Shown: positions 39,598 through 64,000 of the stretch, in pieces
How positions within the stretch are numbered: the stretch's first letter is position 1
How the letters are laid out: every line of letters begins with the position of its first letter
Assembly (NCBI GenBank): GCA_030390025.1
Contig: JASTWF010000327.1
Location: forward strand, 1-64,000
Direction of reading: 5' to 3'
Source: Squalus acanthias
Lineage: Eukaryota
Length of the DNA stretch: 64,000 bases
Made by a program: the position numbers and the translations under genes
Notes under the pieces: generated by a model
Told to the model about the DNA's origin: nothing
Database searches by the model: none
Seen by the model: the letters and a program-made list of their open reading frames with translations, nothing else

Positions 39598-39722
39598 ACT
39601 GTTGGGATTAAAGCAGGGACAGGGTACTGGATTTGGATGATCAGCCATGATCGTATTGAATGGTGGAGCAGGCTCGACGGGCCGAATGGCCCACTCCTGC
39701 TCCTAGATTCTATGTTTCTATG
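39598..39722 (+). mobile_element. CR1-clade (HER1-like) LINE 3' tail
   Basis: GATCAGCCATGATCGTATTGAATGGTGGAGCAGGCTCGACGGGCCGAATGGCCCACTCCTGCTCC followed by a TTCTATG-type tail. Closely similar to the 3' end of the CR1 at 59919-60001. Confidence 0.85.
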
Positions 39723-39774
39723 AATAACAGCAGATAAACCCCGTGCTCTGTGGCACAAACTTTCTAATATTTTA

Positions 39775-43105: not shown

Positions 43106-43473
43106 ATGTTCGTCTCTTCTGTCTGTGGGAAAAGATTTCAAACATCAGTGTGACTGGAAAAGCACCGAGACACACACACCCAAGTGAGAGTGTTCCAGTG
43201 CACTGACTGTGGAAAGAGCTTTAACCAGTTACACAGCCTGAAAAAACATCGCACCGTTCACAGCGGGGAGAAACCGTACACGTGTTCTGTGTGTGGACGA
43301 GGGTTCAACTGATCATCCAACCTGGAGAGACACAAGGACACCCGCACCACGGAGAAACCATGGAAATGTGGGGACTGTGGGAAGGGATTCAGTGAACAGT
43401 CCCAGCTGGAGACCGGGGATAGGCTGTTCACCTGCTCTCTCTCTCTCGGAAGGGATTTACTCAATTATCCAGC
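43106..43473 (+). pseudogene. Decayed C2H2 fingers upstream of the main zinc-finger ORF
   Basis: Frame from ATG 43106 reads [85 protein letters not shown] stops at 43151 and 43310, then a truncated finger and a frameshift at the (CT)n run near 43436-43447. Confidence 0.8.
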
Positions 43474-45657
43474 ATGCTGACACGCCAGCGAGCTCGCAAT
43501 AGGGAGAGGCCGTTCTCCTGCTCTGTGTGTGGGAAGGGAGTCACTTGTTCATCCCACCTCACTGCACACCAACTTGATCATGCTGATGAGAGACCTTTTA
43601 AATGCTCTGACTGTGGGAACAGCTTTAAAACCTCTGAGGAACTGATTAAACACCAGGGAGTTCACGCTGACGAGAGACCGTTCTGTTGCTCTCACTGCGG
43701 GAAGAGGTTCCAGCAGTCATTCCGTCTGGCTGAACACCAGCTCCTTCACACTCATGAGAGTCCATTCAGTTGCTCTCACTGTGGGGAGAGGTTCACCCAG
43801 TCATTGCAACTAGCTGAACACCAGCAAGTTCACATCAAGGAGAGACCGTTCAACTGCTTCGTGTGTGGGAAGGGATTCACTCGTTTAGCCCAACTTATGT
43901 CACATGAGGACATTCACACTACGGAATGGCCGTTCTACTGCTCCGTGTGTGGGAAGGGATTCACTCGTTTCGTCCGCCTTTTGACACACAAGCGAGTTCA
44001 CACAGGGGCGAGGCCGTTCCCATGTTCAGTGTGTGGGAAGAGATTTACTTGTTCAAGCCACCTTTTGGAGCACAAGCGAGTTCACACCAGGGAGAGGCCG
44101 TTCACCTGTTCCATCTGTGGGAAGAGTTTCCCTTCTTCATCCCACCTCTTGATACACCAGCGAGTTCACACCAGGGGGAGGCCGTTTACCTGTTCCGTCT
44201 GTGGGAAGAGTTTCCCTTCTTCATCCCACCTCTTGATACACAAGCGAGTTCACACTGGGGAGAGGCCGTTCACCTGTTCCGTCTGTGGGAAGAGTTTCCG
44301 TCGTTCATCCCACCTCTTGATACACCAGCGAGTTCACACTGGGGAGAGGCCGTTCACCTGCTCCGTGTGTGGGAAGAGATTCGCTCAGTCATCAACCCTG
44401 CTGAGACACCAGCAAGTTCACTCTGATAAGAGACCTTTTAAATGTTCTGACTGTGAGAAGAGCTTTAAAAGAAGCAATGATCTGCTGACACACCAACGCA
44501 CTCACACCGGGGAGAATCTGTTCACCTGCTCTGTGTGTCAGAAAGGATTTACTGATTCATCCCACCTGCTGAGACACCAGCGAGTTCACACTGGGGAGAG
44601 GCCGTTCATCTGCTTTGTGTGTGGGAAGAGATTCATTGAATCATCCCACCTACTGAGACACCAGCGCACTCACACTGAGGAGAGGTCGTTCACCTGCTCC
44701 GAGTGTGGGAAGGGATTCACTCAGTCATCCAGCCTGCTGGCACACCGGCGAATTCACACTGGGGAGAAGACATTCACCTGCTCCGTGTGTGGGAAGAGAT
44801 TCGCTCAGTCATCAACCCTGCTGAGACACCAGCAAGTTCACTCTGATAAGAGACCTTTTAAATGTTCTGACTGTGAGAAGACCTTTAAAAGCAGCAGAGA
44901 TCTGCTGAGACACCAGCGCACTCACACCGGGGAGCAGCCGTTCACCTGCTCCGTGTGTCAGAAGGGATTCACTGATTCATCCCACCTACTGACCCACCAG
45001 CGAGTTCACACTGGGGAGAGGCCGTTCACCTGCTCCGTGTGTGGGAAGAGATTCGCTCAGTCATCAACCCTGCTGACACACCAGCAAGTTCACTCTGATA
45101 AGCGACCTTTTAAATGTTCTGACTGTGAGAAGAGCTTTAAAAGCAGCAATGATCTGCTGAGACACCAACGCACTCACACCGGGGAGAGGCCGTTCACCTG
45201 CTCCGTGTGTCGGAAGAGATTCACAGATTCATCCCACCTACTGACACACCAGCAAGTTCACTCTGATAAGAGACCTTTTAAATGTTCTGACTGTCAGAAG
45301 AGCTTTAAAAGAAGCAATGATCTGCTGAGACACCAACGCACTCACACCGGGGTGAATCCGTTCACCTGCTCCGTGTGTCAGAAGAGATTCAGTGACTCAT
45401 CCCACCTAAAGATACACCAGCGAGTTCACACTGGGGAGAGGCCATTCACCTGCTCCGTGTGTCAGAAGAGATTCAGTGATTCATCCCACCTAAAGAGACA
45501 CCAGCGAGTTCACACTGGAGAGAGGCCGTTCACCTGCTCCGTGTGTGGGAAGGGATTCATTCAGGCATCCAACCTGCGGACACACCAGCGAGTTCACACG
45601 TTACTGCCGAAATTGGATTCTGCTGTTATTGCTGCTGATAATCACATCCAGGACTGA
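43474..45657 (+). CDS. Tandem C2H2 (Kruppel-type) zinc-finger protein, 727 aa, 25 fingers
   Basis: Uninterrupted ORF with 25 C-x2-C-x12-H-x3-H units and TGERPF-type linkers. No KRAB/SCAN/BTB domain is visible. AATAAA at 45748-45753. Confidence 0.9.
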
Positions 45658-45753: not shown

Positions 45754-46247
45754 TCGGCATTGTTTCAAACACACAGTGTGTCGAGTGTTTGATTTCTCCA
45801 AGATAAGAGGAGATTAATTGATGTCCTGTTACTGACTGCTCCATTTTTGAGCCTTTTCTCCTTTCTAACTCTAGATTATTTCAGTTCTCATACCTTCGGT
45901 TACTCTCATGGACAAGTCCCAGCTCCCCATACATTCCAGAGTGCCTCTCCCAGCCTTGGTATCCAGGGAAACTATCGGTAACACGCCCGGGATCACTAAA
46001 CACAAAACCCAGTCTGTTAATCACTTTCAGCTACTGGACTTAGCGTCTGCCCCACAGCATCTCTCTCACCTTCGATGTGTGAATAGAGCATCACGCCTGC
46101 AAACCTGGTTTAGATTTAAATGCACTCAGCAAAAACTCAATCAGAATCAGAGCAGCCGGGCCCGGCGGACGTGCGGCCAGGGCCCCGGCACCAGGAAACC
46201 CAGGGTGCAGCGCCTCCCCCATCCGAGCTGCCGCTTCCTGGTTTCTC

Positions 46248-47129
46248 ATACGGACCAGGGTCAAGCAAGGCTGTGTCATCGCACCAACGCTCTTCTCGAT
46301 CTTCCTGGCTGCAATGCTCCATCTCACCCTCAGTAAGCTGCCCGCTGGAGTGGAGCTAATCTTCAGAACAAACAGGAAACTGTTCAACCTCCATCGTCTC
46401 CAGTCCAGATCCAAGGTCGTCCCATCCTCTGTCATCGAATTACAGTATGCAGACGCCGCTTGCGTCTGTGCACACTCGGAGGTCAAACTCCAAACCATCA
46501 TCAACACCATCACCGAAGCGTACGAGAGCATGGGCCTTACACTAAACATCCGTAAGACAAAGGACCTCTACCAACCTGCCCCCGCCACACAATACTGCCC
46601 CCAGATTATCAAAATCCACGACGAGGCCTTGGACAACGTGGACCACTTTCCATACCTCGGGAGCTGACTGTCATCAAGGGCAGACATCGATGACGAAGTC
46701 CAACACTGCCTTCAGTGTGCCAGTGCAGCCTTCGGTCGCCTGAGGAAGAGAGTGTTTGAAGACCAGGACCTCAAACCCGGCACTAAGCTCATGGTCTACA
46801 GAACAGTAGTGATACCCGCCCTCCTGTATGCTTCAGAGACATGGACCATGTACAGCAAGCACCTCAAAGCACTGGAGAGGTACCACCAATGCTGCCTCCG
46901 CAAGATCCTGCAAATTCATTGGCAGGTTAGGCGCACCAACGTCAGTGTGCTCGCTCAGGCCAACATCCCCAGCATTGAAGCTTTGACTCTGCTCGATCAG
47001 CTCCGATGGCCACATCGTCCGCATGCCCGATACAAGACTCCCAAAACAAGCGCTCTACTCCGAGCTCCGACATGGCAAGAGAGCCCCAGGTGGGCAGAGG
47101 AAATGCTTCAAGGACACCCTCAAAGCCTC
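46248..47129 (+). mobile_element. RTE-clade LINE fragment (RT domain to C-terminus), decayed and interrupted by the ERV
   Basis: VKQGCVIAPTLFSIF, ELQYADA, VDHFPYLGS, AFGRLRKRVF, LLYASETWT and RLPKQALYSELRHGKRAPGGQRKCFKDTLKAS are RTE/BovB-type motifs. Similarity ends abruptly at the TG of 47130. Confidence 0.85.
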
Positions 47130-47335
47130 TGAAAGGGTTAAAAGGGCTAAAATGAGGATTAACGAACAGGGCATTCGTCCCCGGATGAATGTCTCCCCTG
47201 TCGACTTGTAATAAAGTTGATTTACTGAATGAACCTCCAGACTCTGAGTGATTGATTGGGAATAAGGCGGACGTCGACCCTTTATATCAGAGGGTCCGTC
47301 TCGGGGAGAAGAAGCTCTCCCGGTTTACCCTTACA
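47130..47335 (+). mobile_element. ERV 5' LTR (206 bp)
   Basis: Starts TG and ends CA, with imperfect terminal inverted repeats (TGAAAGGGTTAA ... TTTACCCTTACA). AATAAA at 47210-47215. Followed 3 nt later by a PBS. Confidence 0.85.
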
Positions 47336-47338
47336 TCT

Positions 47339-47356
47339 TGGTGTAGTTGGCAGGAT
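47339..47356 (+). promoter_or_regulatory. Primer-binding site, tRNA-Ser
   Basis: TGGTGTAGTTGGCAGGAT equals the complement of the vertebrate tRNA-Ser 3' end (TGGCGTAGTCGGCAGGAT) with two CpG-type C>T changes. Confidence 0.85.
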
Positions 47357-49741: not shown

Positions 49742-52234
49742 GAAATAACTGGTGGATGGAACAGAAGGGCAGTAAGGGAGATGAGTCCATAATTGTGTGT
49801 GTGGACAATGAACAGACTTACGCTCAGGGGAAAAAACAAATGGAAGGTTCGGTGCAAGCAGGCACAGGAAGACTTAAAACGAGCAAGTGAGGAAATGAAA
49901 AAAATGACCGGAGGAAAATGCTGGTGGGAAACAGACGCTGGCCTCCGCTTACCCGCGACTCCAAAGGCAGAGAGAGAAAAGGAAAGTCAGTAAAGGTAGT
50001 GAAGAGGAAAGTGAAGAGGAAGACATAGACGATGAACAAAAATGGGCGGTAAACCATAACCGGGATTTGTATCCAGTGGAGTACAAGCCCATATACCCCG
50101 ACCTTAAAGGGTTAGAGTTAGGACCAGAGGACAAAGGGGCAAAAATGGCCCCAATTACTGTGAAACATATATCGGACGGGAAGGATGACCAAGGGAAGGA
50201 TAAACCCAAGAAGAGAACCGAAACCCATAAACCTTTTAGCCCGCTGGAAAAGCCGGCCATATTGCAGGAACTCCCCCCGTTAAAACCAGCAAACGCAAAC
50301 CCAGAATTTTGGTCGAAATTAGAAGGGATGATTGAGGTGCACAATATGCATGAGAAGGACGGACACGCCCTGGTAAAAGCCCGATGCCCGCGAAGTACGT
50401 GGGAAGGAATGATGGACGGATAGAAGGAAGGGAACTGGGTGAGAAGAGAAGGAGAAAGGGCGGCTAAGATAGGGGACTTTGTTGAGGCGGTTCAGGATGC
50501 ACTGGGGGCGGGACAGAGTAATTGGGGAACCAGAATGAATGTACAACAAGGAAAGGACCAGACGGTAACAGACGATGCTGAGCCAAAATATCGCAGTTAC
50601 CAACAATACTCGGGGGTCCCAGATCCCAAACGGAACGATCCGGTGTTTTTTAAAATGTTAAAGGAAGGAATGAGCCCGCAGCATCAGGAGGTCCGGAAGC
50701 TCGGGATCTCGGTCGGTCAAAATTATGGGCAAGTAATGTCCTGGGCGGGAGAAATAGATGCCCGATGAATTTCGGACAGGGAAACCAAGGGAAAGACTAA
50801 GGCAGCGGCCCTGGAATATACAGCAGCAATAGCAACAAACCAGGGAACAGGACAGGGAAAATGTTATGGTGCGGCTCACCCCACCACCAGTTGAAAAATT
50901 ACCCCAGCAAAGGTACAGGGGCCCAGACCAAAACAGGACAGACGTATTGTGAGAAGAAAGGTCAATGGAAAACGAGGTTTGCAAGGGAAAGAAGAGATAA
51001 AGTTGTTAAAGGAAAAAGTAGCGTTGCTACAGACGGAACGTTTAATCAAAGGAGACCGAGTCCCCTTTGCAAAAGTGATAAACTTTATTCCGGAAAGTCT
51101 GTCTCAAAAAAAACACAACGGGTTAAGAGAGAAACATAGCCATGTGGTTAAGCATAAAGTTCAGGAGAGAGAGGGAGAGATAAAGAAGGAAAAACATCTA
51201 ATTTGCAGGCTAACCAATCTGAAAACTCAGCAAAGGAAGGGGGGGAAAAAAACCAGGGATTTGGAAAGCCAGGAAAAGCTGCTGAGACACCGATGTAAAA
51301 AAAAGAGACATTTAAAGTTTTCCCGACATGTAAGTTATTAATGTCTGTGCCGAGACAAATAAAACACAAGATTTGCTGAGTGAAAGGAACCTTAAAAAAT
51401 GCTGGAATTTCAGTTTGTGTGAAAGTGTGTGTTAAAAGGTTGAAAGTTGTCCTGACTGTGAATGTTTAAGAAGTTACATTATTCTTTTGTCTGAAAGTCT
51501 GTCTTTAAAAAAGTGTCTGTCATTTTTGTTTTAGCTCCACCCACTCTTTTGTACAGAGAGCTAAAAGCTGTTTAACCCTTTGAAGACTTGTCTTGAATGA
51601 TGGACAAGTGTGTGTTGTTTTAAGTTTGTTAATTGTTTTACAAAAGATAAGCTTCAGCCTTGAAGTCACAGTTGCCAACGTGCCTGGAAGAAAATGAATT
51701 TGAATGTTTACAAGGCATGGGTAATTGTTTCTTTGTTAATATGGTTTCTTTCTTTTCCAAGTGATACTGGTTAGTTTTTTAAAAATGATCTGGATTGAAT
51801 TGGAGTTATTGAGGTTAATTAACCTATTAATACCAGACTTTTATTGTGGCCACGGTGAAATTCTGGTTGGTGTAAATTTGTGTAGACCGCATCGAATAAG
51901 ATTGTGCACCCAGAATTGAAACAAAACTTCAAAGTACAATTTAAGTTAAGCTGGTGTGTAAAAACTGAGAAGAAAAACAAAAAGTTTGTTTAACAAAAGA
52001 TTAAGTTTCAGTCTAAGATTTAACCTTGGAGTCGCGGTTGCTATGGTGAAATCCTCCAAAGCACCCTGATTTGATTTGTTTAAATGTGAAAAACTAATTT
52101 TTCTCCAGTTGTAAGCAACAACTTTAGTATTGCTGAATGAAATTTAAAGATATTGGACATTATTAAATTTAAGTGTCTTAATTTTAAGTTAATATTTCCC
52201 CACAGTGACGGAAGGAAAATTAAGATTTGATAAA

Positions 52235-54174
52235 TTAACCCCTTGGGCTCTTAAACAGAACTATATCAGATAGCCGGAAAGCAAAGTGGGAAACAATCCT
52301 CTTACCAAGAGATGGATCAGTATTAATACAAAAACATACTGGAATAAACCCAGCATCCGGAATATTAACAGAAGGGGATAAGCATAGTTGCCAAGTAAAA
52401 CTAGAGGAAGAAGTAAGTAGTGGGGTAAAAGAGAACCCCCTCGAGAACCCGGATGAAGTAGTATACGTGGATGGATCAAGAAAATACATAAATGGAGAAC
52501 CTAGAACAGGATGGGCCGTGGTAAATCAGGAGGGGGAAACCTTAATGACTGGAGCACTATAGGGGGATAAATCAGCACAGGGGGCTGAATTGGTGGCCCT
52601 GATCAAAGCACTAGAATCAGCAAAGGACAAAAAAAATGAACATATACACGGACAGTCGATACGCATTTGGAGTGGTTCATGATTATATGACACTGTGGGC
52701 CCGAAGGAGTTATATGACCTCCACTGGAGAGGTAGTAAAACATGGAAAGCTAATAGAAAGGCTAGTTAAGGCGGCACAGGCACCTTTAGAGGCAGCGGTA
52801 ATTAAAATAAAGGCCCACACGAAGAAAGACATGGACTCACAGGAACCCCAGGATCAGGCCCCCATAGGGAATCGGAATGCAAATTTGGCCGCAAAACTAG
52901 CCACGGAGGAACTTAAACCAGAAGCCATGTTTAAACACGAGATAAATATGGTCATGACAGCCAGTGGGGTACAGGAAGTGAATATAGTGGAGGTACAAGA
53001 AAATACTAGTAAAGAGGAAAAGGAGAGATGGAAACAAGCTGGCGCACAGTTACAAGATGGAATTTGGAAATGGGGCCCACGTAACCAGGTGGTGGCACCG
53101 GAATGTTGTAGACAACAACTGATGGGGCTGTACCATGGTGTAACACATACCGGCAGAAGTAACATGTTGCACCTACTGTCACAGTACTGGTAGTGGCCAA
53201 AGATGGGTCGAGAGGTGGCGAAGTATTGTCACCGCTGTATAATATGTGCTAAGAATAATGTAGGACAGAGATGTAGAGTTAGAGCAGCAAACCAGCCCAG
53301 GCCCCAAGGACCCTGGGAAAACTTGCAGATTGACTTTAGCGCAGGACCGGGGGAAGAAACATTGCCTGGTAATAATCGACCAATTTACCAGGTGGGTGGA
53401 AGCCTTTGCCACCCGAGATTGCTCTGCGAAAACAGTTGCACTAATATTGGCTACCGAGGTTATACCCCGTTGGGGAGTGCCTCTGCAAATTGACTCAGAT
53501 AAAGGCACCCACTTTACCGGTAAAATAATGAAGGAAACTTGTAAGCTGTTAAATGTAACACAAAAATACCACATACCAGATCACCCCCAGAGCTCGGGGA
53601 TGGTAGAAAGAATGAATAGACACTGAAAAACACGCTGACAAAAGCCATCCAAGAAAGAGGGAAGGGATGGTCGGAATTACTACCCAGCATATTAATGAGG
53701 CTGCGAGCCACCCCAGGACGCACGACCGGACTGACCCCCAATGAATTAATGACAGGACAAGCTATGAGGCTGCCAGAGGATCTGGCTGGAGGGGTGGGAG
53801 AACCAGGACCAGTACAAGATAGACTAAGACAATACTTAGTACAACTAAACCAAGAGGTACAAGCACTAAATAGAGAAGTAAGGAACCAGCAACAGATTAA
53901 AGATCTAGAAAGACAAAATGCTGGACTTAAACCAGATGAGCTGCCCAAAATAGGCCAGCAGGGAATGACGCAAGTTATTGGAAGAAAGGGAATGGAACCC
54001 CGTTGGATGGGGCCGTATACCGTATTAATGACAAGCGATACATGTGTTTGTCTACAGGAACCGACGGGCATGCGATGGAAGCACTGGACCCAGGTGAAAC
54101 CATTTAACACTAAAGATCCCCATTCTACCCTCTCCTCTAGGGAAAAGAGCTCGGAAAATGACGGACTAAGATAA
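52235..54174 (+). pseudogene. pol: ERV pol remnant: end of tether domain, RNase H and integrase (stops and frameshifts)
   Basis: SDSRKAKWE..NPASG..HSC (tether); YVDGS (52464), SAQGAELVAL, IYTDSRYAFGVVHD, IKIKAH and GNRNAN (RNase H); HGVTH..CHRCIIC, LQIDF, IDSDKGTHFT, PQSSGMVERMN and PRWMGPY (integrase). Confidence 0.9.
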
Positions 54175-54226
54175 CCATACCATGAAGTTGCTGTGGATAA
54201 CACTAACCATAGCCATATGGCAGAGA

Positions 54227-57200
54227 GCCAGGGCGGTGGGAATACCATGGGCACAGATGGCCAGGGTGGTCGGAATACCAGGGGCACAGATGGCCAGGGC
54301 GGTGATAATACCAGGGGCACAGATGGCCAGGGCGGTCGGTACACCAGGGGGCACAGATGGCCAGGGCGGTGAGAATACCAGGGGGCACAGATGGCCAGGG
54401 CGGTGAGAATACCAGGGGGCACAGACGGCCAGGGCGGTGAGAATACCAGGGGCACAGATGGCCAGGGCGGTGAGAATACCAGGGGGCACAGACGGCCAGG
54501 GCGGTGAGAATACCAGGGGGCACAGACGGCCAGGGCGGTGAGAATGCCAGGGGGCACAGATGGTCAGGGCGGTCGGAATGCCAGGGGCACAGATGGCCAG
54601 GGCGGTGAGAATACCAGGGGGCACAGACGGTCAGGGCGGTGAGAATACCAGGGGCACAGATGGCCAGGGCGGTGAGAATACCAGGGGGCACAGACGGCCA
54701 CGGCGGTGAGAATACCAGGGGGCACAGATGGCCAGGGCGGTGAGAATACCAGGGGGCACAGACGGCCAGGGCGGTCGGAATACCAGGGGCACAGATGGCC
54801 AGGGCGGTGAGAATCCCAGGGGGCACAGACGGCCAGGGCGGTCGGAATACCAGGGGCACAGACGGCCAGGGCGGTGAGAATACCAGGGGGCACAGATGGT
54901 CAGGGCGGTCAGAATGCCAGGGGCACAGATGGCCAGGGCGGTGAGAATACCAGGGGGCACAGACGGCCAGGGCGGTGAGAATACCAGGGGGCACAGATGG
55001 TCAGGGCGGTGAGAATACCAGGGGCACAGATGGCCAGGGCGGTGAGAATACCAGGGGGCACAGATGGCCAGCGCGGAGAGAATACCAGGGGGACAGATGG
55101 CCAGGGCGGTGAGAATACCAGGGGGCACAGATGGCCAGGGCGGTGAGAATACCAGGGGGCACAGATGGCCAGGGCGGTGAGAATACCAGGTGGCACAGAT
55201 GGCCAGGGCGGTCGGAATACCAGGGGGCACAGATGGCCAGGGCGGTCGGAATACCAGGGGGCACAGACGGCCAGGGCGGTCGGAATACCAGGGGGCACAG
55301 ACGGCCAGGGCGGTCGGAATACCAGGGGCACAGATGGCCAGGGTGGTGAGAATACCAGGGGGCATTGACGGCCATGGCGGTGAGAATACCAGGGGCACAG
55401 ACGGCCATGGCGGTGAGAATACCAGGGGCACAGACGGCCAGGGCGGTCGGAATACCAGGGGCACAGACGGCCATGGCGGTGAGAATACCAGGGGCACAGA
55501 TGGCCAGGGCGGTGAGAATACCAGGGGCACAGATGGCCAGGGCGGTGAGAATACCAGGGGGCACAGACGGCCAGGGCGGTCGGAATACCAGGGGGCACAG
55601 ACGGTCAGGGCGGTGAGAATACCAGGGGCACAGATGGCCAGGGCGGTGAGAATACCAGGGGGCACAGATGGCCAGGGCGGTGAGAATACCAGGGGGCACA
55701 GATGGCCAGGGCGGTGAGAATACCAGGGCGCACAGATGGCCAGGGCGGTCGGAATACCAGGGGGCACAGACGGCCAGGGCGGTGAGAATACCAGGGGCAC
55801 AGATGGCCAGGGCGGTCGGAATACCAGGGGCACAGATGGCCAGGGCGGTGAGAATACCAGGGGGCACAGATGGCCAGGGCGGTGAGAATACCAGGGGCAC
55901 AGACGGCCATGGCGGTCGGAATACCAGGGGGCACAGATGGCCAGGGCGGTGAGAATACCAGGGGGCACAGATGGCCAGGGCGGTGAGAATACCAGGGGGC
56001 ACAGATGGCCAGGGCGGTGAGAATACCAGGGGGCACAGATGGCCAGGGCGGTGAGAATACCAGGGGGCACAGATGGCCAGGGCGGTGAGAATACCAGGGG
56101 GCACAGACGGCCAGGGCGGTGAGAATACCAGGGGGCACAGACGGCCAGGGCGGTGAGAATACCAGGGGGCACAGATGGCCAGGGTGGTCGGAATACCAGG
56201 GGCACAGATGGCCAGGGTGGTGAGAATACCAGGGGGCACAGACGGCCATGGCGGTGAGAATACCAGGGGCACAGACGGCCAGGGCGGTCGGAATACCAGG
56301 GGCACAGACGGCCATGGCGGTGAGAATACCAGGGGCACAGACGGCCAGGGCGGTGAGAATACCAGGGGCACAGATGGCCAGGGTGGTCGGAATACCAGGG
56401 GCACAGATGGCCAGGGCGGTGAGAATACCAGGGGCACAGACGGCCAGGGCGGTGAGAATACCAGGGGCACAGACGGCCATGGCGGTGAGAATACCAGGGG
56501 CACAGACGGCCATGGCGGTGAGAATACCAGTGGCACAGACGGCCAGGTCGGTCGGAATACCAGGGGCACAGATGGCCAGGGCGGTGAGAATACCAGGGGC
56601 ACAGACGGCCAGGGCGGTGAGAATACCAGGGGGCACAGATGGCCAGGGCGGTCAGAATACCAGGGGGCACAGATGGCCAGGGTGGTCAGAATACCAGGGG
56701 GCACAGATGGCCAGGGCGGTGAGAATACCAGGGGCACAGATGGCCAGGGCGGTCAGAATACCAGGGGGCACAGATGGCCAGGGCGGTGAGAATACCAGGG
56801 GCACAGACGGCCAGGGCGGTGAGAATACCAGGGGCACAGATGGCCAGGGCGGTCAGAATACCAGGGGGCACAGATGGCCAGGGCGGTGAGAATACCAGGG
56901 CGCACAGACGGCCAGGGCGGTGGGAATACCAGGGGGAACAGATGGCCAGGGCGGTGAGAATACCAGGGGCACAGACGGCCAGGGCCGTGAGAATACCAGG
57001 GGCACAGACGGCCAGAGCCGTGAGAATACCAGGGGCACAGATGGCCAGGGCGGTGAGAATACCAGGGGCACAGATGGCCAGGGCGGTCGGAATACCAGGG
57101 GCACAGATGGCCAGGGCGGTGAGAATACCAGGGGGCACAGACGGCCAGGGCGGTGAGAATACCAGGGGCACAGACGGCCATGGCGGTGAGAATACCAGGG

Positions 57201-57427
57201 GCACAGACGGCCAGGGCGGTGAGAATACCAGGGGCACAGATGGCCAGGGTGGTCGGAATACCAGGGGCACAGATGGCCAGGGCGGTGAGAATACCAGGGG
57301 CACAGACGGCCAGGGCGGTGGGAATACCAGGGGCACAGATGGCCAGGGTGGTCAGAATACCAGGGGGCACAGATGGCCAGGGCGGTGAGAATACCAGGGG
57401 CACAGATGGCCAGGGCGGTCAGAATAC
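54227..57427. repeat. 33/34-bp minisatellite, left arm (~96 units); unit GCCAGGGCGGTGAGAATACCAGGGG(G)CACAGA(T/C)G
   Basis: Direct reading. Unit length varies with the G4/G5 run. Confidence 0.97.
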
Positions 57428-60001
57428 TGAGGATGAGTTCATTGAGTGTATTAGGGATGGGTTTCTTGAGCAGTATGTAACTGAACCGACCAGGGGGCAA
57501 GCAACCTTAGATCTGGTCCTGTGTAACGAGACAGGATTAATTAAAAATGTCCTAGTGAAGGATCCCCTTGGAATGAGTGACCATAACATGGTTGAATTCC
57601 ATATTCAATTAGAGGGTGAGAAGGTTGGATCTCAAACAAGCGTGCTAAGCTTGAATAAAGGAGACTATGAAGGTATGCGAGCGGAATTGAGTAGAGTGGA
57701 TTGGGAAAATAGATTTAAGGGTAAGACGACACATGATCAGTGGTGTACATTCAAGGAGTTATTTTACAACTTCCAAAAAAAATATATTCCACTGAAAAGA
57801 AAAGGGTGTAAAAGAAAGGACAGTCATCCGTGGCTAAGTAAAGAAATTAAGGATAGTATTCGACTAAAAACAAGGGCATATAAGGTAGCGAAATCTAGTG
57901 GGAGGACAGAGGATTGGGAAAACTTTAAAAGGCAGCAAAAAATAACAAAAAGATTGATTAAGAAAGGGAAGATAGATTATGAAAGTAAATTAGCAAAAAA
58001 TATAAAAACAGATAGTAAGAGTTTTTATAGTTATATAAAAAGAAAAAGGGTGGCTAAAGTAAATGTTGGTCCCTTAGAGGATGACACCGGGAAATTAATG
58101 GTGGGAAATATGGAGATGGCAAAAACACTGAATGAATATTTTGTATCAGTCTTTACAGTAGAGGACACTAAGAATATCCCAACACTGGACAAACAGGGGG
58201 CTATAGGGGGAGAGGAGCTAAACACGATCAAAATCACTAAGGAAGTGGTACTCGGTAAAATAATGGGACTCAAGGCGGATAAATCACCTGGACCTGATGG
58301 CTTACATCCTAGAGTCTTGAAGGAAGTGGCGGTAGGGATTGTAGATGCATTGGTAATAATTTTTCAAAACTCCCTGGATTCCGCTAAGGTCCCGGCAGAC
58401 TGGAAAACTGCTAATGTAACACCCTTATTTAAAAAGGGCAGTAGACAGAAGGCTGGTAACTATAGACCGGTTAGCCTAACATCTGTGGTAGGTAAAATTT
58501 TGGAGTCCATTATTAAGGAAACAGTAACAGGACATTTGGATAATCATAATTTAATAGGACAAAGTCAGCATGGTTTTACGAAGGGGAAGTCATGTTTGAC
58601 AAATTTGCTGGAGTTCTTTGAGGAAGTAACATATAGAGTGGATAAAGGGGAACCAGTGGACGTAGTGTATTTAGACTTCCAAAAGGCATTTGACAAGGTG
58701 CCACACAAAAGATTATTGCTTAAGGTAAAAAATCACGGGATTGGGGGTAATATTCTGGCATGGATAGAGGATTGGCTATCTAACAGAAAGCAAAGAGTTG
58801 GGATAAATGGTTCATTCTCAGACTGGCAATCAGTAACTAGTGGTGTTCCACAGGGGTCAGTGCTGGGTCCCCAACTCTTCACAATCTATATTAACAATTT
58901 GGAGGAAGGGACCAAGTGTAACATATCAAAATTTGCAGATGATACAAAGATGGGAGGGAAAGTAGTGAGTGAGGAGGACATAAAAAACCTGCAAGGGGAC
59001 ATAGACAGGCTAAGTAAGTGGGCAGAGATTTGGCAGATGGAATACAACACTGGAAAGTGTGAGGTGATGCACTTTGGCAGGAAAAATCCTAGAGCAATTT
59101 ATTATCTTAATGGCAAGAAACTGGAGAGTACTGAAGTGCAAAGGGATCTGGGGGTCCTGGTGCACGAAACTCAAAAGGTTAGTATGCAGGTGCAGCAAGT
59201 GATTAAGAAGGCAAATGGAATGTTGGCTTTCATTGCTAGGGGGATAGAATATAAAAATAGGGAGGTATTGCTTCAGTTGTACAAGGTATTGATGAGACCG
59301 CACCTGGAATACTGCATACAGTTTTGGTGTCCTTACTTAAGGAAAGACATCCTTGCTCTCGAGGCAGTGCAAAAAAGGTTCACTCGGTTAATCCCGGGGA
59401 TGAGGGGGTGGTCATATGAGGAGAGGTTGGGTAGATTGGGACTCTACTCATTGGAGTTCAGAAGAATGAGAGGCGATCTTATTGAAACATATAAGATTGT
59501 GAAGGGGTTGGATCGGGTGGATGCGGGGAGGATGTTCCCGATGACGGGTGAGACGAGAACTAGGGGACATAGTCTTAGAATAAGGGGCTGCTCTTTCAAA
59601 ACTGAGATGAGGAGGAACTACTTCACTCAGAGGGTGGTAGGTCCATGGAATATGCTGCCACAAAAAGCTGTAGAAGCTACAACATTAATTAAATTTAAAA
59701 CAGAAATAGACAGTTTCCTAGAAGTAAAGGGCATTAAGGGTTACGGGGAGCGGGCAGGAATTTGGACATGAGTCTAGGTTCGGATCGGTCATGGCCCTGT
59801 GGGTAGTGGAGCGGGCCCAGGGACTGTGTAGCCTGATTCTGCTCCTATTTCGTGTGTGCAATTCTGTTAGATGCAGGAGATGGTTCTGTGATAGATAGTA
59901 GATTGGCGGTTAGGATCAGATCAGCCATGATCTTATTGAATGGCGGAGCAGGCTCGAGGGGCCGATTGGCCTACTCCTGCTCCTATTTCTTATGTTCTTA
60001 T
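57428..60001 (+). mobile_element. Young 5'-truncated CR1 LINE (end of EN, full RT, 3' UTR)
   Basis: About 780 codons open to the stop at 59771 (SDHNMV, KSPGPDG, GNYRPVSLTS, QHGF, YLDFQKAFD, GVPQGSVLGP, FADD). TTCTTATGTTCTTAT tail; 5-bp duplication AATAC (57423-27 / 60002-06). Confidence 0.95.
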
Positions 60002-61362
60002 AATACCAGGGGGCACAGATGGCCAGGGCGGTGAGAATACCAGGGGCACAGACGGCCAGGGCGGTGAGAATACCAGGGGCACAGATGGCCAGGGCGGTCA
60101 GAATACCAGGGGGCACAGATGGCCAGGGCGGTGAGAATACCAGGGCGCACAGACGGCCAGGGCGGTGGGAATACCAGGGGGCACAGACGGCCAGGGCGGT
60201 GAGAATACCAGGGGCACAGACGGCCAGGGCCGTGAGAATACCAGGGGCACAGACGGCCAGGGCCGTGAGAATACCAGGGGCACAGATGGCCAGGGCGGTG
60301 AGAATACCAGGGGCACAGATGGCCAGGGCGGTCGGAATACCAGGGGCACAGATGGCCAGGGCGGTGAGAATACCAGGGGGCACAGACGGCCAGGGCGGTG
60401 AGAATACCAGGGGCACAGACGGCCATGGCGGTCGGTACACCAGGGGGCACAGATGGCCAGGGCGGTCGGAATACCAGGGGGCACAGATGGCCAGGGCGGT
60501 GAGAATACCAGGGGGCACAGACGGCCAGGGCGGTCGGAATACCAGGGGCACAGATGGCCAGGGTGGTGAGAATACCAGGGGGCACAGACGGCCATGGCGG
60601 TGAGAATACCAGGGGCACAGACGGCCAGGGCGGTGAGAATACCAGGGGCACAGACGGCCAGGGCGGTCGGAATACCAGGGGCACAGATGGCCAGGGCGGT
60701 GAGAATACCAGGGGCACAGATGGCCAGGGCGGTCGGAATACCAGGGGGCACAGATGGTCAGGGCGGTGAGAATACCAGGGGGCACAGATGGTCAGGGCGG
60801 TGAGAATACCAGGGGGCACAGATGGTCAGGGCGGTGAGAATACCAGGGGGCACAGACGGCCAGGGCGGTGGGAATACCAGGGGGCACAGACGGCCAGGGC
60901 GGTGAGAATACCAGGGGCACAGACGGCCAGGGTGGTCAGAATACCAGGGGGAACAGACGGCCAGGGCGGTGAGAATACCAGGGGCACAGACGGCCAGGGC
61001 GGTGAGAATACCAGGGGCACAGATGGCCAGGGCGGTGAGAATACCAGGGGCACAGATGGCCAGGGCGGTGAGAATACCAGGGGCACAGATGGCCAGGGCG
61101 GTGAGAATGCCAGGGGGCACAGATGGCCAGGGCGGTCGGAATACAAGGGGCACAGATGGCCAGGGCGGTGAGAATACCAGGGGGCACAGATGGCCAGGGC
61201 GGTGAGAATACCAGGGGGCACAGACGGCCAGGGCGGTGAGAATACCAGGGGCACAGACGGCCATGGCGGTCGGTACACCAGGGGGCACAGATGGCCAGGG
61301 TGGTCGGAAATACCAGGGGCACAGATGGCCAGGGCGGTGAGAATACCAGGGGCACAGATGGC
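60002..61362. repeat. 33/34-bp minisatellite, right arm (~41 units)
   Basis: Same unit resumes in register after the CR1 and runs into env at GCACAGATGGCATGG. Confidence 0.97.
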
Positions 61363-63851
61363 ATGGAGGGATGGACCCTGCTGCATCCCCGCAATGGTAT
61401 TATATCAAACGATCCTGGGCTGGGGACCAGTCGCGGGTGGAGATAGCATGAGAGGTTGTGGGCGGCCACAAGGAGAGGAGTGCGTAACAATACAGGGAAA
61501 GGAGGGAGGAATGAGATGTTATAACTTGGGGCAGATGGGGAACAGACCCCAGGCTAGGCCTAGAAGGGATGTGATAAACAGAGGGCGCACTAAATCCAAA
61601 CCCGGTATGATTGTAGAAGGGAATTACATAACCAATAGCATCCGGGTTATTGAAGGAAACATCTACTATGGCCAATTCCCGGTGCCCGATCAAGAGTCCC
61701 CATACACGAAGTGGGTCGGATGTGACAAGGTCGTAACACTAAATACGATCAATGCCTTCTCGGATGAGCAGATGTGTATCACGGGTCCAGCCTCATACCC
61801 AATCCTCCTGAGCGTGGAGACATCAAGAAATGGCTCAGTCTGGTTGACAGAGCCTGGAACTTGGGTGTTGAGTGAAGGTACGAAGGACAGGAAACGATGT
61901 GTGATCCTGAAAGGAGATGTAATGACTAAATATGGATGTGCCGAGACAATAACCGGGAACTACTCCAACTAGAACAGGCCAATGGTCGAATGTATAGAAA
62001 CCTTATTAAAGGTCAGATGGGGAGGACCGCCTAAACCGACACCGGCTCAACCCACTACCTCAACTCCCAACACACAGAAAGAAGGAACAAGCGAACCAAC
62101 CATGTTACAATGCCCGGTTATGACACCTGGGCCCATGAATGGACCAGTATTATTTACCGAGGGAGAACAATTGTATGATAACGTGAGACATGAAATTGTA
62201 CCAGTACTAATAAACTTAACCATGTTACAATGGCCAGGATGTTGTGAAAGGTTCACTAAAACTAGAGAATTGTATGTATATATGATAAAGAATGTCATTA
62301 ACCAAGCTGCTGATGCGACAGGGCCACTAGTTTCAGGGGACATGCTGCATTCCACCAAAGGATTAAGAGGAGCTTAGGAACCAATGTACTCACGGGGATA
62401 AATACGGGGACATCGCTCATTAATGCCCTCGATATACAAGGAGTTCAGAGTCGTGTGGAATGACTACAAAGGGCAATACAACAGATTTTAGAGAAGGAAA
62501 CGGGTTTAGTTCAATAAGGGTCGGAGTTGGGAGAAGATATGATAAGGAAATTACTCGAGGGAATTAAGGTTATAGAGGACCATGCTAGCATTGTTAACAA
62601 ACTAAACCATAGAGATGAGGAACAGGCAAAAGACGGGGTAGGGAGAGGCTTGTGCCATGCCTATGGCCAATGGATCACCGGACAGTTAAAACACAATCTG
62701 GCACAGATACAGCGAGGTGAGGTACTAGACTGGATTAACAGCACACAGCTCTATGGCATGAGCCAGAATCCAGGCCCTCTGAGTGCTTGTACCCTCAAAG
62801 GGATGACCAGAGTATATCCAGTCATACAAAGATGTAAAGCAGAAGTGACAGCAATGATAGGCATGGTACTCCTGATACCGGTGGTGGGACTAGATACGGC
62901 TCCATACCCGCAGTACCAGGTAACAAACACAGGCCTAGTGAGGGGTGAGACATACCTCCACTACTACCCAATTGATACCTATGCCATCATAAAGAATGGT
63001 ACTATGAGAGGAGTCTCCCTAAACGGATGCCATGGGAAAGGTATGCTTACGATATGCCCACATCCGGTAGGAGAAGGCCCTAAGGATGAGTGCAGCTATA
63101 ATAAGACAGAGGAGTGTGTGTTGGAATTATCACATGTTGATCACTATCACACCCGCTCGGGATATAGAGGCGAAGGGGAGTATTGTACAGCCACCACAGA
63201 GACTGAGTACCAATATAGTAACCTTGTATGTGCAATCACAATGCCTAACTTCTGCTTTACGCCAAAGATCCCTGTGACAATTGGATACACCAGATTGGTG
63301 TATGTACATTCAAGGGAGGAGATAAAACTAACTGTGCTAGATAATTTAAGAGATGAGTTGATCAATTATGAAGATCCGGTAGAGACCCCAATACCCCGCC
63401 TGCAAGAAGATCTGCAAGAAATGAAAGAGGATTTAAGTAGAATGGTGAAACAATACGTAGTGTTGCGAAGGAACCTTGGGGAACTAGAAAGGGACATAGA
63501 AGTAGAACTACAGGAAACCTCATGGTATGAGGAGCTGTGGGATTGGGGGATGAATGTCAACATACACCCATGGATCCGCATCATCTCTCACATACTAGTT
63601 ATAGTACAGTTGGTTTTGGCAATAGGATTGGGGATAGCAGCATGCGCTGCCTGTAAAAAACATAGAAAACAAAAGAGAAAGAGAGAAATGGAAGAAACGT
63701 ACATGACATTGATAAAGTAGTAATGCATGCTGTTCGGTGGTAATTGTTGCAGAAATCTCCTGGGCAGATTCCCAGCGAGCAGACGGAATATTACTACGAA
63801 TAAGAGAAAGCTTGGGAGAAAGACTTGCTTAACGGATGTATGGTACTAACA

Positions 63852-64000
63852 GTCGATCGACAGTTCCGACGGGCCACAGCGAAAAACCGCATAGACCTCC
63901 TCAGAAGACGAACACGGGACACAACCAACAGAGTACCCTACGTCGTCCAGTACTTCCCCGGTGCGGAAAAACTACGCCATGTTCTTCGCAGCCTTCAACA
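63852..64000 (+). mobile_element. Second Penelope-like fragment (RT-to-GIY-YIG linker), truncated by the window
   Basis: Reads DRQFRRATAKNRIDLLRRRTRDTTNRVPYVVQYFPGAEKLRHVLRSLQ, homologous to the RVPLVITFHP linker of the PLE at 48680-49741. Confidence 0.7.

What the first reader, a model, noticed from the sequence alone, without database searches (positions are those of the whole stretch)
54182..61400. A ~4.5-kb minisatellite grown out of the retroviral env signal-peptide junction
Seen: env begins MKLLWITLTIAIWQRA-RAVGIPWAQMA, and the 33 bp encoding RAVGIPWAQMA are the first unit of the array. After ~137 copies the last unit (..GAQMA) runs directly into WRDGPCC of the env ectodomain. Collapsing the array to one unit restores a contiguous env N-terminus. 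Inference: the repeat is not a foreign insertion but a tandem amplification of 11 env codons at about the signal-peptidase site. The 33-bp unit is frame-preserving and has no stop in any + frame; only the G4/G5 slippage variants (34 bp) shift the frame. This could be post-integration satellite birth with the seed still in place. It could also be a runaway version of an in-frame VNTR at the N-terminus of the mature SU protein.
Basis: partly seen in the sequence, partly recalled or inferred. Interest (0 to 1): 0.75.

Follow-up and report, generated by a model that had tools for sequence, protein, structure and literature searches.

The report
Minisatellite born inside shark retrovirus env
A short stretch of a dead shark retrovirus envelope gene, present once in related virus copies, was amplified in the host genome into about 136 tandem repeats and later hit by a jumping gene; this is a clear new example of a known way that repeat DNA is born.

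Summary
The array is real: 136 units, about 4.56 kb, starting in the 5' end of a decayed shark retroviral env. The finding omits a 2.57-kb CR1-type LINE that splits it (57428-60001). The core inference holds: a contig from another run carries signal-peptide DNA, one unit, then the ectodomain, so the repeat is env's own DNA and not a foreign insertion. The frame argument fails. 66 of 135 whole units are 34 bp, 48 of 69 33-bp units carry a stop in another + frame, and env stops at 54404. In related copies the ectodomain frame joins the stretch in the register of the 34-bp units. The 34-bp form is therefore probably seed-like, and the window's in-frame GAQMA-WRDGPCC look is probably a by-product of two offsetting length changes. 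That argues against a runaway in-frame VNTR. Best reading: a germline minisatellite grown in an already dead provirus, then a 20-unit block duplication, then the LINE insertion. Tandem repeats derived from endogenous retroviruses are well documented, so this is a new member of a known kind.

The parts
52615..53190 (+). RNase H remnant of the provirus pol
   Evidence: PF00075 E 1.6e-9; best PDB hits retroviral RT/RNase H p80 chains, E 7e-10
53264..54171 (+). Integrase remnant, in two frames
   Evidence: PF00665 E 1.4e-13 and PF18697 E 7.9e-5; retroviral integrases in PDB
54182..54235 (+). env start and probable signal peptide; the A-x-A site falls two codons into the first unit
   Evidence: Translation; 9-residue hydropathy up to 2.3; cleavage site is inference
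54230..57427 (+). Minisatellite, 5' arm: 95 whole units of 33 or 34 bp plus the first part of the split unit
56679..60391 (+). Higher-order duplication: units 74-88 (from 56679) repeated as units 94-108 (from 57345); the second copy is cut by the LINE
   Evidence: 3 differences in about 501 bp; score 11 vs at most 5 in 300 shuffles; end coordinate approximate
57428..60001 (+). 5'-truncated CR1-type LINE inserted in one unit, flanked by a 5-bp target-site duplication (57423-57427, 60002-60006)
   Evidence: 780 codons without a stop; PF00078 E 6.3e-31; junctions; the CR1 label is recalled, no tree built
60002..61363 (+). Minisatellite, 3' arm: rest of the split unit plus 40 whole units
61364..62323 (+). 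env ectodomain, N-terminal part; broken by a stop at 61970 and a frame change near 62323
   Evidence: no protein homologue found for 61364-61969; matched by contigs of all 4 runs laid
62323..63720 (+). env C-terminal part: RIKR site (62359-62370), F-like fusion fold, transmembrane segment; stops at 62461 and 62515
   Evidence: 39-48% identity to shark proteins; Foldseek best hits pneumo/paramyxovirus F, E 6e-7; stops

Best explanation
A host-germline minisatellite born from a single G-rich stretch at the end of the signal peptide of an endogenous retrovirus env in a shark-type genome. Steps: (1) shown: related copies hold the stretch once. (2) inferred: slippage or unequal repair between imperfect short direct repeats that flank the stretch made the first duplication, at a 34-bp period that breaks the env frame. 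(3) shown from unit order: the array grew by local and block duplications while the G run flipped between four and five G, giving 33- and 34-bp units. (4) shown: a young LINE inserted after a 20-unit block duplication. (5) inferred: all this happened in an integrated, non-functional provirus, in a neighbourhood prone to repeat growth. The array most likely has no function.
For: Single-unit copies: X10 contig 1 (522 letters) has 216 upstream letters, whose last 30 match window 54191-54220 at 29 of 30, then one unit and 267 bp of ectodomain; one X3 contig shows the same 30 letters (tables 7 and 8; window letters). Register: all X3 depth at 61364 (319.4) comes from 3 contigs that differ in length from the window just behind the last unit by a non-multiple of three; 4 X14 contigs join a five-G unit in frame to the ectodomain; the X10 contig differs by a multiple of three over the whole span. 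Dead provirus: no protease or RT seen in 50700-52240, stops and frame changes in pol and env. Order of events: block duplication straddles the LINE. Neighbourhood: a 38.7-kb 54-bp satellite in the same window. No unit-like sequence elsewhere in the window. Known process: PMC3389668.
Against: No genome was held, so proviruses could not be counted one by one. Contigs break at tandem repeats, so copies with 2-5 units would not show as such. The letters of the single unit in relatives were not displayed; the five-G reading is deduced from clipping, gap counts and joint positions, and 17 indel rows and 305 letter rows were hidden. The first three and the last unit of the array are 33 bp, which fits a G loss before the first duplication as well. 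The flanking direct repeat is imperfect (6-7 of 9 letters). G4Hunter score is only 0.77, so a quadruplex cause is not shown.
Confidence: 0.84

Rival explanations
1. A replicating viral sub-lineage carried a compensated frameshift around this stretch and tolerated in-frame 33-bp duplications at the start of mature SU (a coding VNTR); one integrated copy then ran away and gained 34-bp units.
For: Units 1-3 and the last unit are 33 bp and read through without a stop in the entry frame; 0 of 69 33-bp units have a stop in that frame; the last unit is in frame with the ectodomain.
Against: No X3 contig at 61364 shows the window's junction; all depth there is of the other types (contigs drop rare variants, so this is weak). 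66 of 135 units are 34 bp and the frame shifts at unit 4. Reverse transcription tends to delete tandem repeats (recalled).
Confidence: 0.07
2. The repeat started in a defective, complemented element and was carried to several loci as short arrays (as with LTR12 or Ogre elements); this locus is only the longest.
For: The copy lacks a recognisable RT; unit-to-unit junctions occur in runs labelled as two organisms, A and B. Precedent: PMC3389668 (LTR12), PMC7004042 (abstract).
Against: Summed depth on the units is only about 5 to 14 times the flank depth in X3, X2 and X10, the order expected from one or a few arrays in a multi-copy family; depth is no copy number, so this is a hint only. A look-up with the repeat found no look-alike in this genome's earlier notes (notes cover part of the genome).
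Confidence: 0.07
3. An unrelated satellite was inserted into env and only happens to read in frame.
For: The genome is rich in satellites (earlier notes).
Against: Related copies contain one unit at exactly this place; no target-site duplication at the array ends; no copy elsewhere in the window.
Confidence: 0.01
4. The array or its 33/34-bp mix is an assembly or homopolymer artefact.
For: G-run length is a typical long-read error (recalled).
Against: The 33/34 pattern is kept across a 15-unit duplicated block; contigs of other runs show unit-to-unit junctions, five-G clipping and a variant that occurs once in the window.
Confidence: 0.01

Closest known systems
TE-derived human minisatellites (Ahmed and Liang 2012, PMC3389668; abstract and passages read)
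   Same: Tandem repeat that overlaps and derives from a retroelement; starts at or after insertion and grows by local duplication; 1,597 of their 7,276 cases are ERV-associated, internal viral sequence included.
   Different: Most of their cases have two units; this one has 136. Here the single-copy state is seen in related copies. The passages read do not single out env; their supplementary list was not read and may hold env cases.
Mouse Ms6-hm and Hm-2 (in MaLR LTRs; seen only as table rows and references in PMC9659126 and PMC6947457)
   Same: Long, G-rich arrays expanded inside an LTR element in a vertebrate germline.
   Different: Seeded in the LTR, not coding DNA; much shorter units (recalled); instability measured there, not here.
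Satellites from TE reading frames: chicken HinfI/CR1 ORF2, Phodopus PROsat/L1 ORF2, rye E900/gag (PMC9659126 section 2.2 read)
   Same: Repeat unit derives from coding DNA of a retroelement.
   Different: None of those listed is from env; those are multi-locus satellites, this one sits in its parent gene.
Retrotransposon-derived arrays of Lathyrus sativus (PMC7004042; abstract only)
   Same: A short element-borne motif expands at one locus in a favourable chromosomal region.
   Different: There the elements already carry short arrays; here the related copies seen carry one unit.
Lokiretrovirus Env (Wang and Han 2020, PMC7947760; abstract, section 5 and passages read)
   Same: Signal peptide, RXKR site, F-like fusion fold, transmembrane segment; retroviral RNase H and integrase upstream.
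   Different: Defined by RT phylogeny, which cannot be tested here; 'shark' and 'cartilaginous' do not occur in its main text; no PF00523 hit by sequence; the fold also matches foamy and walleye retrovirus Env.

Membership tests
TE-derived minisatellite | Head-to-tail array of units of tens of bases | tested here: met
   136 units of 33/34 bp, 92% matches
TE-derived minisatellite | Unit is part of the element's own sequence | tested here: met
   One unit between signal peptide and ectodomain in X10 contig 1; same upstream letters in one X3 contig
TE-derived minisatellite | Seed flanked by 5-20 bp direct repeats (Haber-Louis model, as cited) | tested here: inconclusive
   Only an imperfect 9-bp repeat, 6-7 of 9 letters, at the array ends
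TE-derived minisatellite | Length polymorphism among individuals (VNTR) | not testable with these tools
   Only contigs were available; they break at the repeat
In-frame coding VNTR | All units a multiple of three | tested here: not met
   66 of 135 whole units are 34 bp
In-frame coding VNTR | Host reading frame stays open | tested here: not met
   Frame shift at unit 4, stop at 54404; further env breaks downstream
In-frame coding VNTR | Low-copy in-frame alleles in related copies | tested here: inconclusive
   None seen, but contigs cannot show them
Lokiretrovirus | Env related to paramyxo/pneumovirus F | tested here: met
   Foldseek: hMPV, measles and RSV F, best E 6e-7, TM 0.3-0.38, model pLDDT 69, pTM 0.38; no PF00523 hit in 0 of 26 members' listed families
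Lokiretrovirus | RXKR cleavage site, signal peptide, TM | tested here: met
   RIKR at 62359; RSKR/RNKR/RRKR in 6 of 7 homologues inspected; signal and TM by inspection
Lokiretrovirus | RT phylogeny sister to sampled retroviruses | not testable with these tools
   No RT recognised in this copy; no genome held
CR1 LINE (the insert) | RT frame, 5' truncation, target-site duplication | tested here: met
CR1 LINE (the insert) | RT clade placement | not tested
   Label rests on recalled motifs and tail

The most novel reading that the evidence does not exclude
A shark retrovirus lineage with an F-type Env carried a compensated frameshift and a variable, in-frame 11-residue repeat at the very start of its mature surface protein, and this locus is a fossil of that viral VNTR which then ran away in the germline.
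Probability: 0.07. Interest if true: 0.55.

Novelty: new member of a known kind. Interest (0 to 1): 0.27.

Why it matters
How minisatellites start is still poorly explained: known mechanisms covered only 6% of TE-derived cases in the human survey (PMC3389668). Here the pre-expansion state survives in related provirus copies, and the array has internal time marks (block duplication, LINE insertion), so its birth and growth can be ordered and dated across shark species. With other arrays born from LINE coding DNA noted in the same genome (unchecked notes), it suggests sharks as a good system for this question. It is also a caution: an in-frame look across a repeat need not be the ancestral frame. 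No function for host or virus is indicated.

Tried and rejected
No whole genome was held, so paralogues could not be counted directly. No listed run is on record as RNA; X2 is only guessed to be RNA, so nothing is claimed about expression. X14 (organism E) has no contig on 61308-61352 and no listed unit-to-unit end; contigs show presence, not absence, so a lineage without the array is a lead only. What lies upstream of the unit in the X14 contigs was not shown. Protein searches for the env N-terminal part found nothing (lengths 111-354 only), and none of 61 fetched proteins held the unit peptide: these homologues have a different N-terminal region. Sequence searches of the env C-half against Pfam and PDB gave no meaningful hit. 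G-quadruplex as cause: G4Hunter 0.77, 58 long-loop motifs, not persuasive. No tRNA gene. No 3' LTR partner inside the window. Searches listed no paper on an env-seeded array (listings and abstract starts only; most subscription papers are not in the library). One search on shark repeat landscapes gave nothing relevant. Earlier-finding look-ups were empty; one search gave three irrelevant microbial hits.

Full report
Observation. The frame from ATG 54182 reads MKLLWITLTIAIWQRA-RAVGIPWAQMA, and the last unit runs into WRDGPCC at 61364. In codon register there are 95 whole units at 54230-57411, one split unit, and 40 whole units up to 61363: 136 in all, about 4.56 kb (TRF 95.6 + 40.6 copies). The finding leaves out that the array is cut by a 2,574-bp LINE at 57428-60001. 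It has 780 codons without a stop, an RT domain (PF00078, E 6e-31) and a 5-bp target-site duplication. Its CR1 label is recalled from motifs. Two statements are wrong or understated. 48 of 69 33-bp units have a stop in another + frame (0 of 69 in the entry frame), and 66 of 135 whole units are 34 bp. The env frame shifts at unit 4 and stops at 54404.

The host element. Upstream lie RNase H and integrase remnants; no protease or RT was recognised in 50700-52240. The env C-half matches shark proteins at 39-48% identity (Mustelus, Pristiophorus, Chiloscyllium), with weaker relatives in Heterodontus and frogs. A model of moderate quality (pLDDT 69, pTM 0.38) matches pneumo- and paramyxovirus F proteins best (E 6e-7), and also foamy and walleye retrovirus Env. 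With the RIKR site this resembles lokiretrovirus Env (PMC7947760), but membership needs RT. Env is broken beyond the array by stops at 61970, 62461 and 62515 and a frame change near 62323. The provirus is dead.

Is the unit env's own DNA? No genome was held. I laid contigs of 4 of 20 listed runs on 61263-62600. X10 (organism B) contig 1 has 216 letters of upstream sequence, whose last 30 match window 54191-54220 at 29 of 30 (compared by eye), then one unit and 267 bp of ectodomain. One X3 contig (organism A) shows the same 30 letters; its extent was not listed. Four X14 contigs (organism E) join 26-28 unit-like letters directly to the ectodomain; what lies further upstream was not shown. So single-unit copies exist, and a foreign insertion is ruled out. 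X3, X2 and X10 also show unit-to-unit junctions, with summed depth 5500, 105 and 56 on the units against about 590-990, 7 and 11 on the next two bins. That is the order of one or a few arrays, but depth is no copy number. X14 has no depth there; contigs cannot prove absence.

Which frame was ancestral? In X3, all depth at 61364 (208.5 + 110.9 = 319.4; 3 contigs) comes from copies whose length differs from the window just behind the last unit by a non-multiple of three. The four X14 contigs were aligned to a five-G, 34-bp unit, and coordinate arithmetic puts that unit's start in frame with the ectodomain. The X10 contig has 5 gaps and differs by a multiple of three over the whole span. Three runs thus agree that the frame enters from the signal peptide and leaves the stretch in the register of the 34-bp units. 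The 33-bp form is then the derived one, and the window's GAQMA-WRDGPCC continuity comes from two offsetting length changes. This is a deduction, at about 75%: the unit's letters in relatives were not displayed, and 17 indel rows, 305 letter rows, 56 loose ends and 685 pieces were hidden. Against it, units 1-3 and the last unit of the array are 33 bp, so a G may have been lost before the first duplication. Either way env was out of its family frame at or before the start of the array.

History of the array. Units differ by 2.7 changes on average. Units 74-88 recur as units 94-108 with 3 differences in about 501 bp (score 11; best of 300 shuffles 5), with the 33/34 pattern intact. The LINE sits inside the second copy, so it came after that duplication; its open frame suggests it is young. 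The array ends share an imperfect 9-bp repeat (6-7 of 9 letters), a weak fit to the Haber-Louis slippage model (as cited in PMC6947457 and PMC3389668). G4Hunter is 0.77, so a quadruplex cause is not shown. The window also holds a 38.7-kb 54-bp satellite and a zinc-finger exon. The position at the signal-peptidase site is probably incidental: the stretch is G-rich (inference).

Comparison. In the human survey 7,276 minisatellites derive from TEs, 1,597 from ERVs including internal sequence (PMC3389668, passages; supplement not read). Coding-derived satellites are known from CR1, L1 and gag (PMC9659126 section 2.2). Plant LTR elements seed arrays that expand locally (PMC7004042, abstract). Searches listed no env-seeded case, within the library's limits. 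Unchecked earlier notes report similar arrays born from LINE coding DNA in this genome and F-type Env in its retroviruses.

Verdict. A real, well-preserved env-seeded germline minisatellite (0.84); a new member of a known kind; interest 0.27. The most novel reading left, a viral in-frame VNTR on a compensated frameshift, has about 0.07.

Noticed in passing
window 57428-60001: Young 5'-truncated CR1-type LINE with a 780-codon open frame; its tail has an 87% match at 39639-39730.
   Followed up: yes
window 2-38762: 54-bp G-rich satellite, 718 copies, 98% matches; ends in what looks like a short inverted piece of the unit at about 38765. Origin not examined.
   Followed up: no
window 43423-45657: C2H2 zinc-finger exon, about 21 fingers in a 744-codon open frame.
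   Followed up: no
window 47130-47356: Candidate short 5' LTR (TG...CA, AATAAA at 47210) followed by a primer-binding-site-like 18-mer resembling tRNA-Ser (by eye; tRNA match recalled). No 3' partner in the window.
   Followed up: partly
window 49908-52240: Probable gag remnants without Pfam hits, then an AT-rich non-coding stretch where protease and RT would be.
   Followed up: partly
window 62323-63720: Env folds like paramyxo/pneumovirus F; lokiretrovirus-like Env in a shark-type genome, a host group not named in the main text of PMC7947760. Already noted for this genome by earlier agents.
   Followed up: yes
run X2 contig, window 53005 / 61798: A contig joins pol to mid-env at a 4-bp microhomology: another copy that lacks integrase and the env 5' part.
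   Followed up: no
window 54340, 60436, 61274: Three rare five-G units share a variant; organism E's contigs were aligned to this type. It may be the most seed-like unit, or an alignment accident.
   Followed up: partly
window 63850-64000: A different element begins after env, resembling a Penelope-like retroelement (recalled); the 3' LTR is not in the window.
   Followed up: no
window 45875-47130: Decayed LINE (RTE-like, recalled) into which the provirus appears to have inserted.
   Followed up: no
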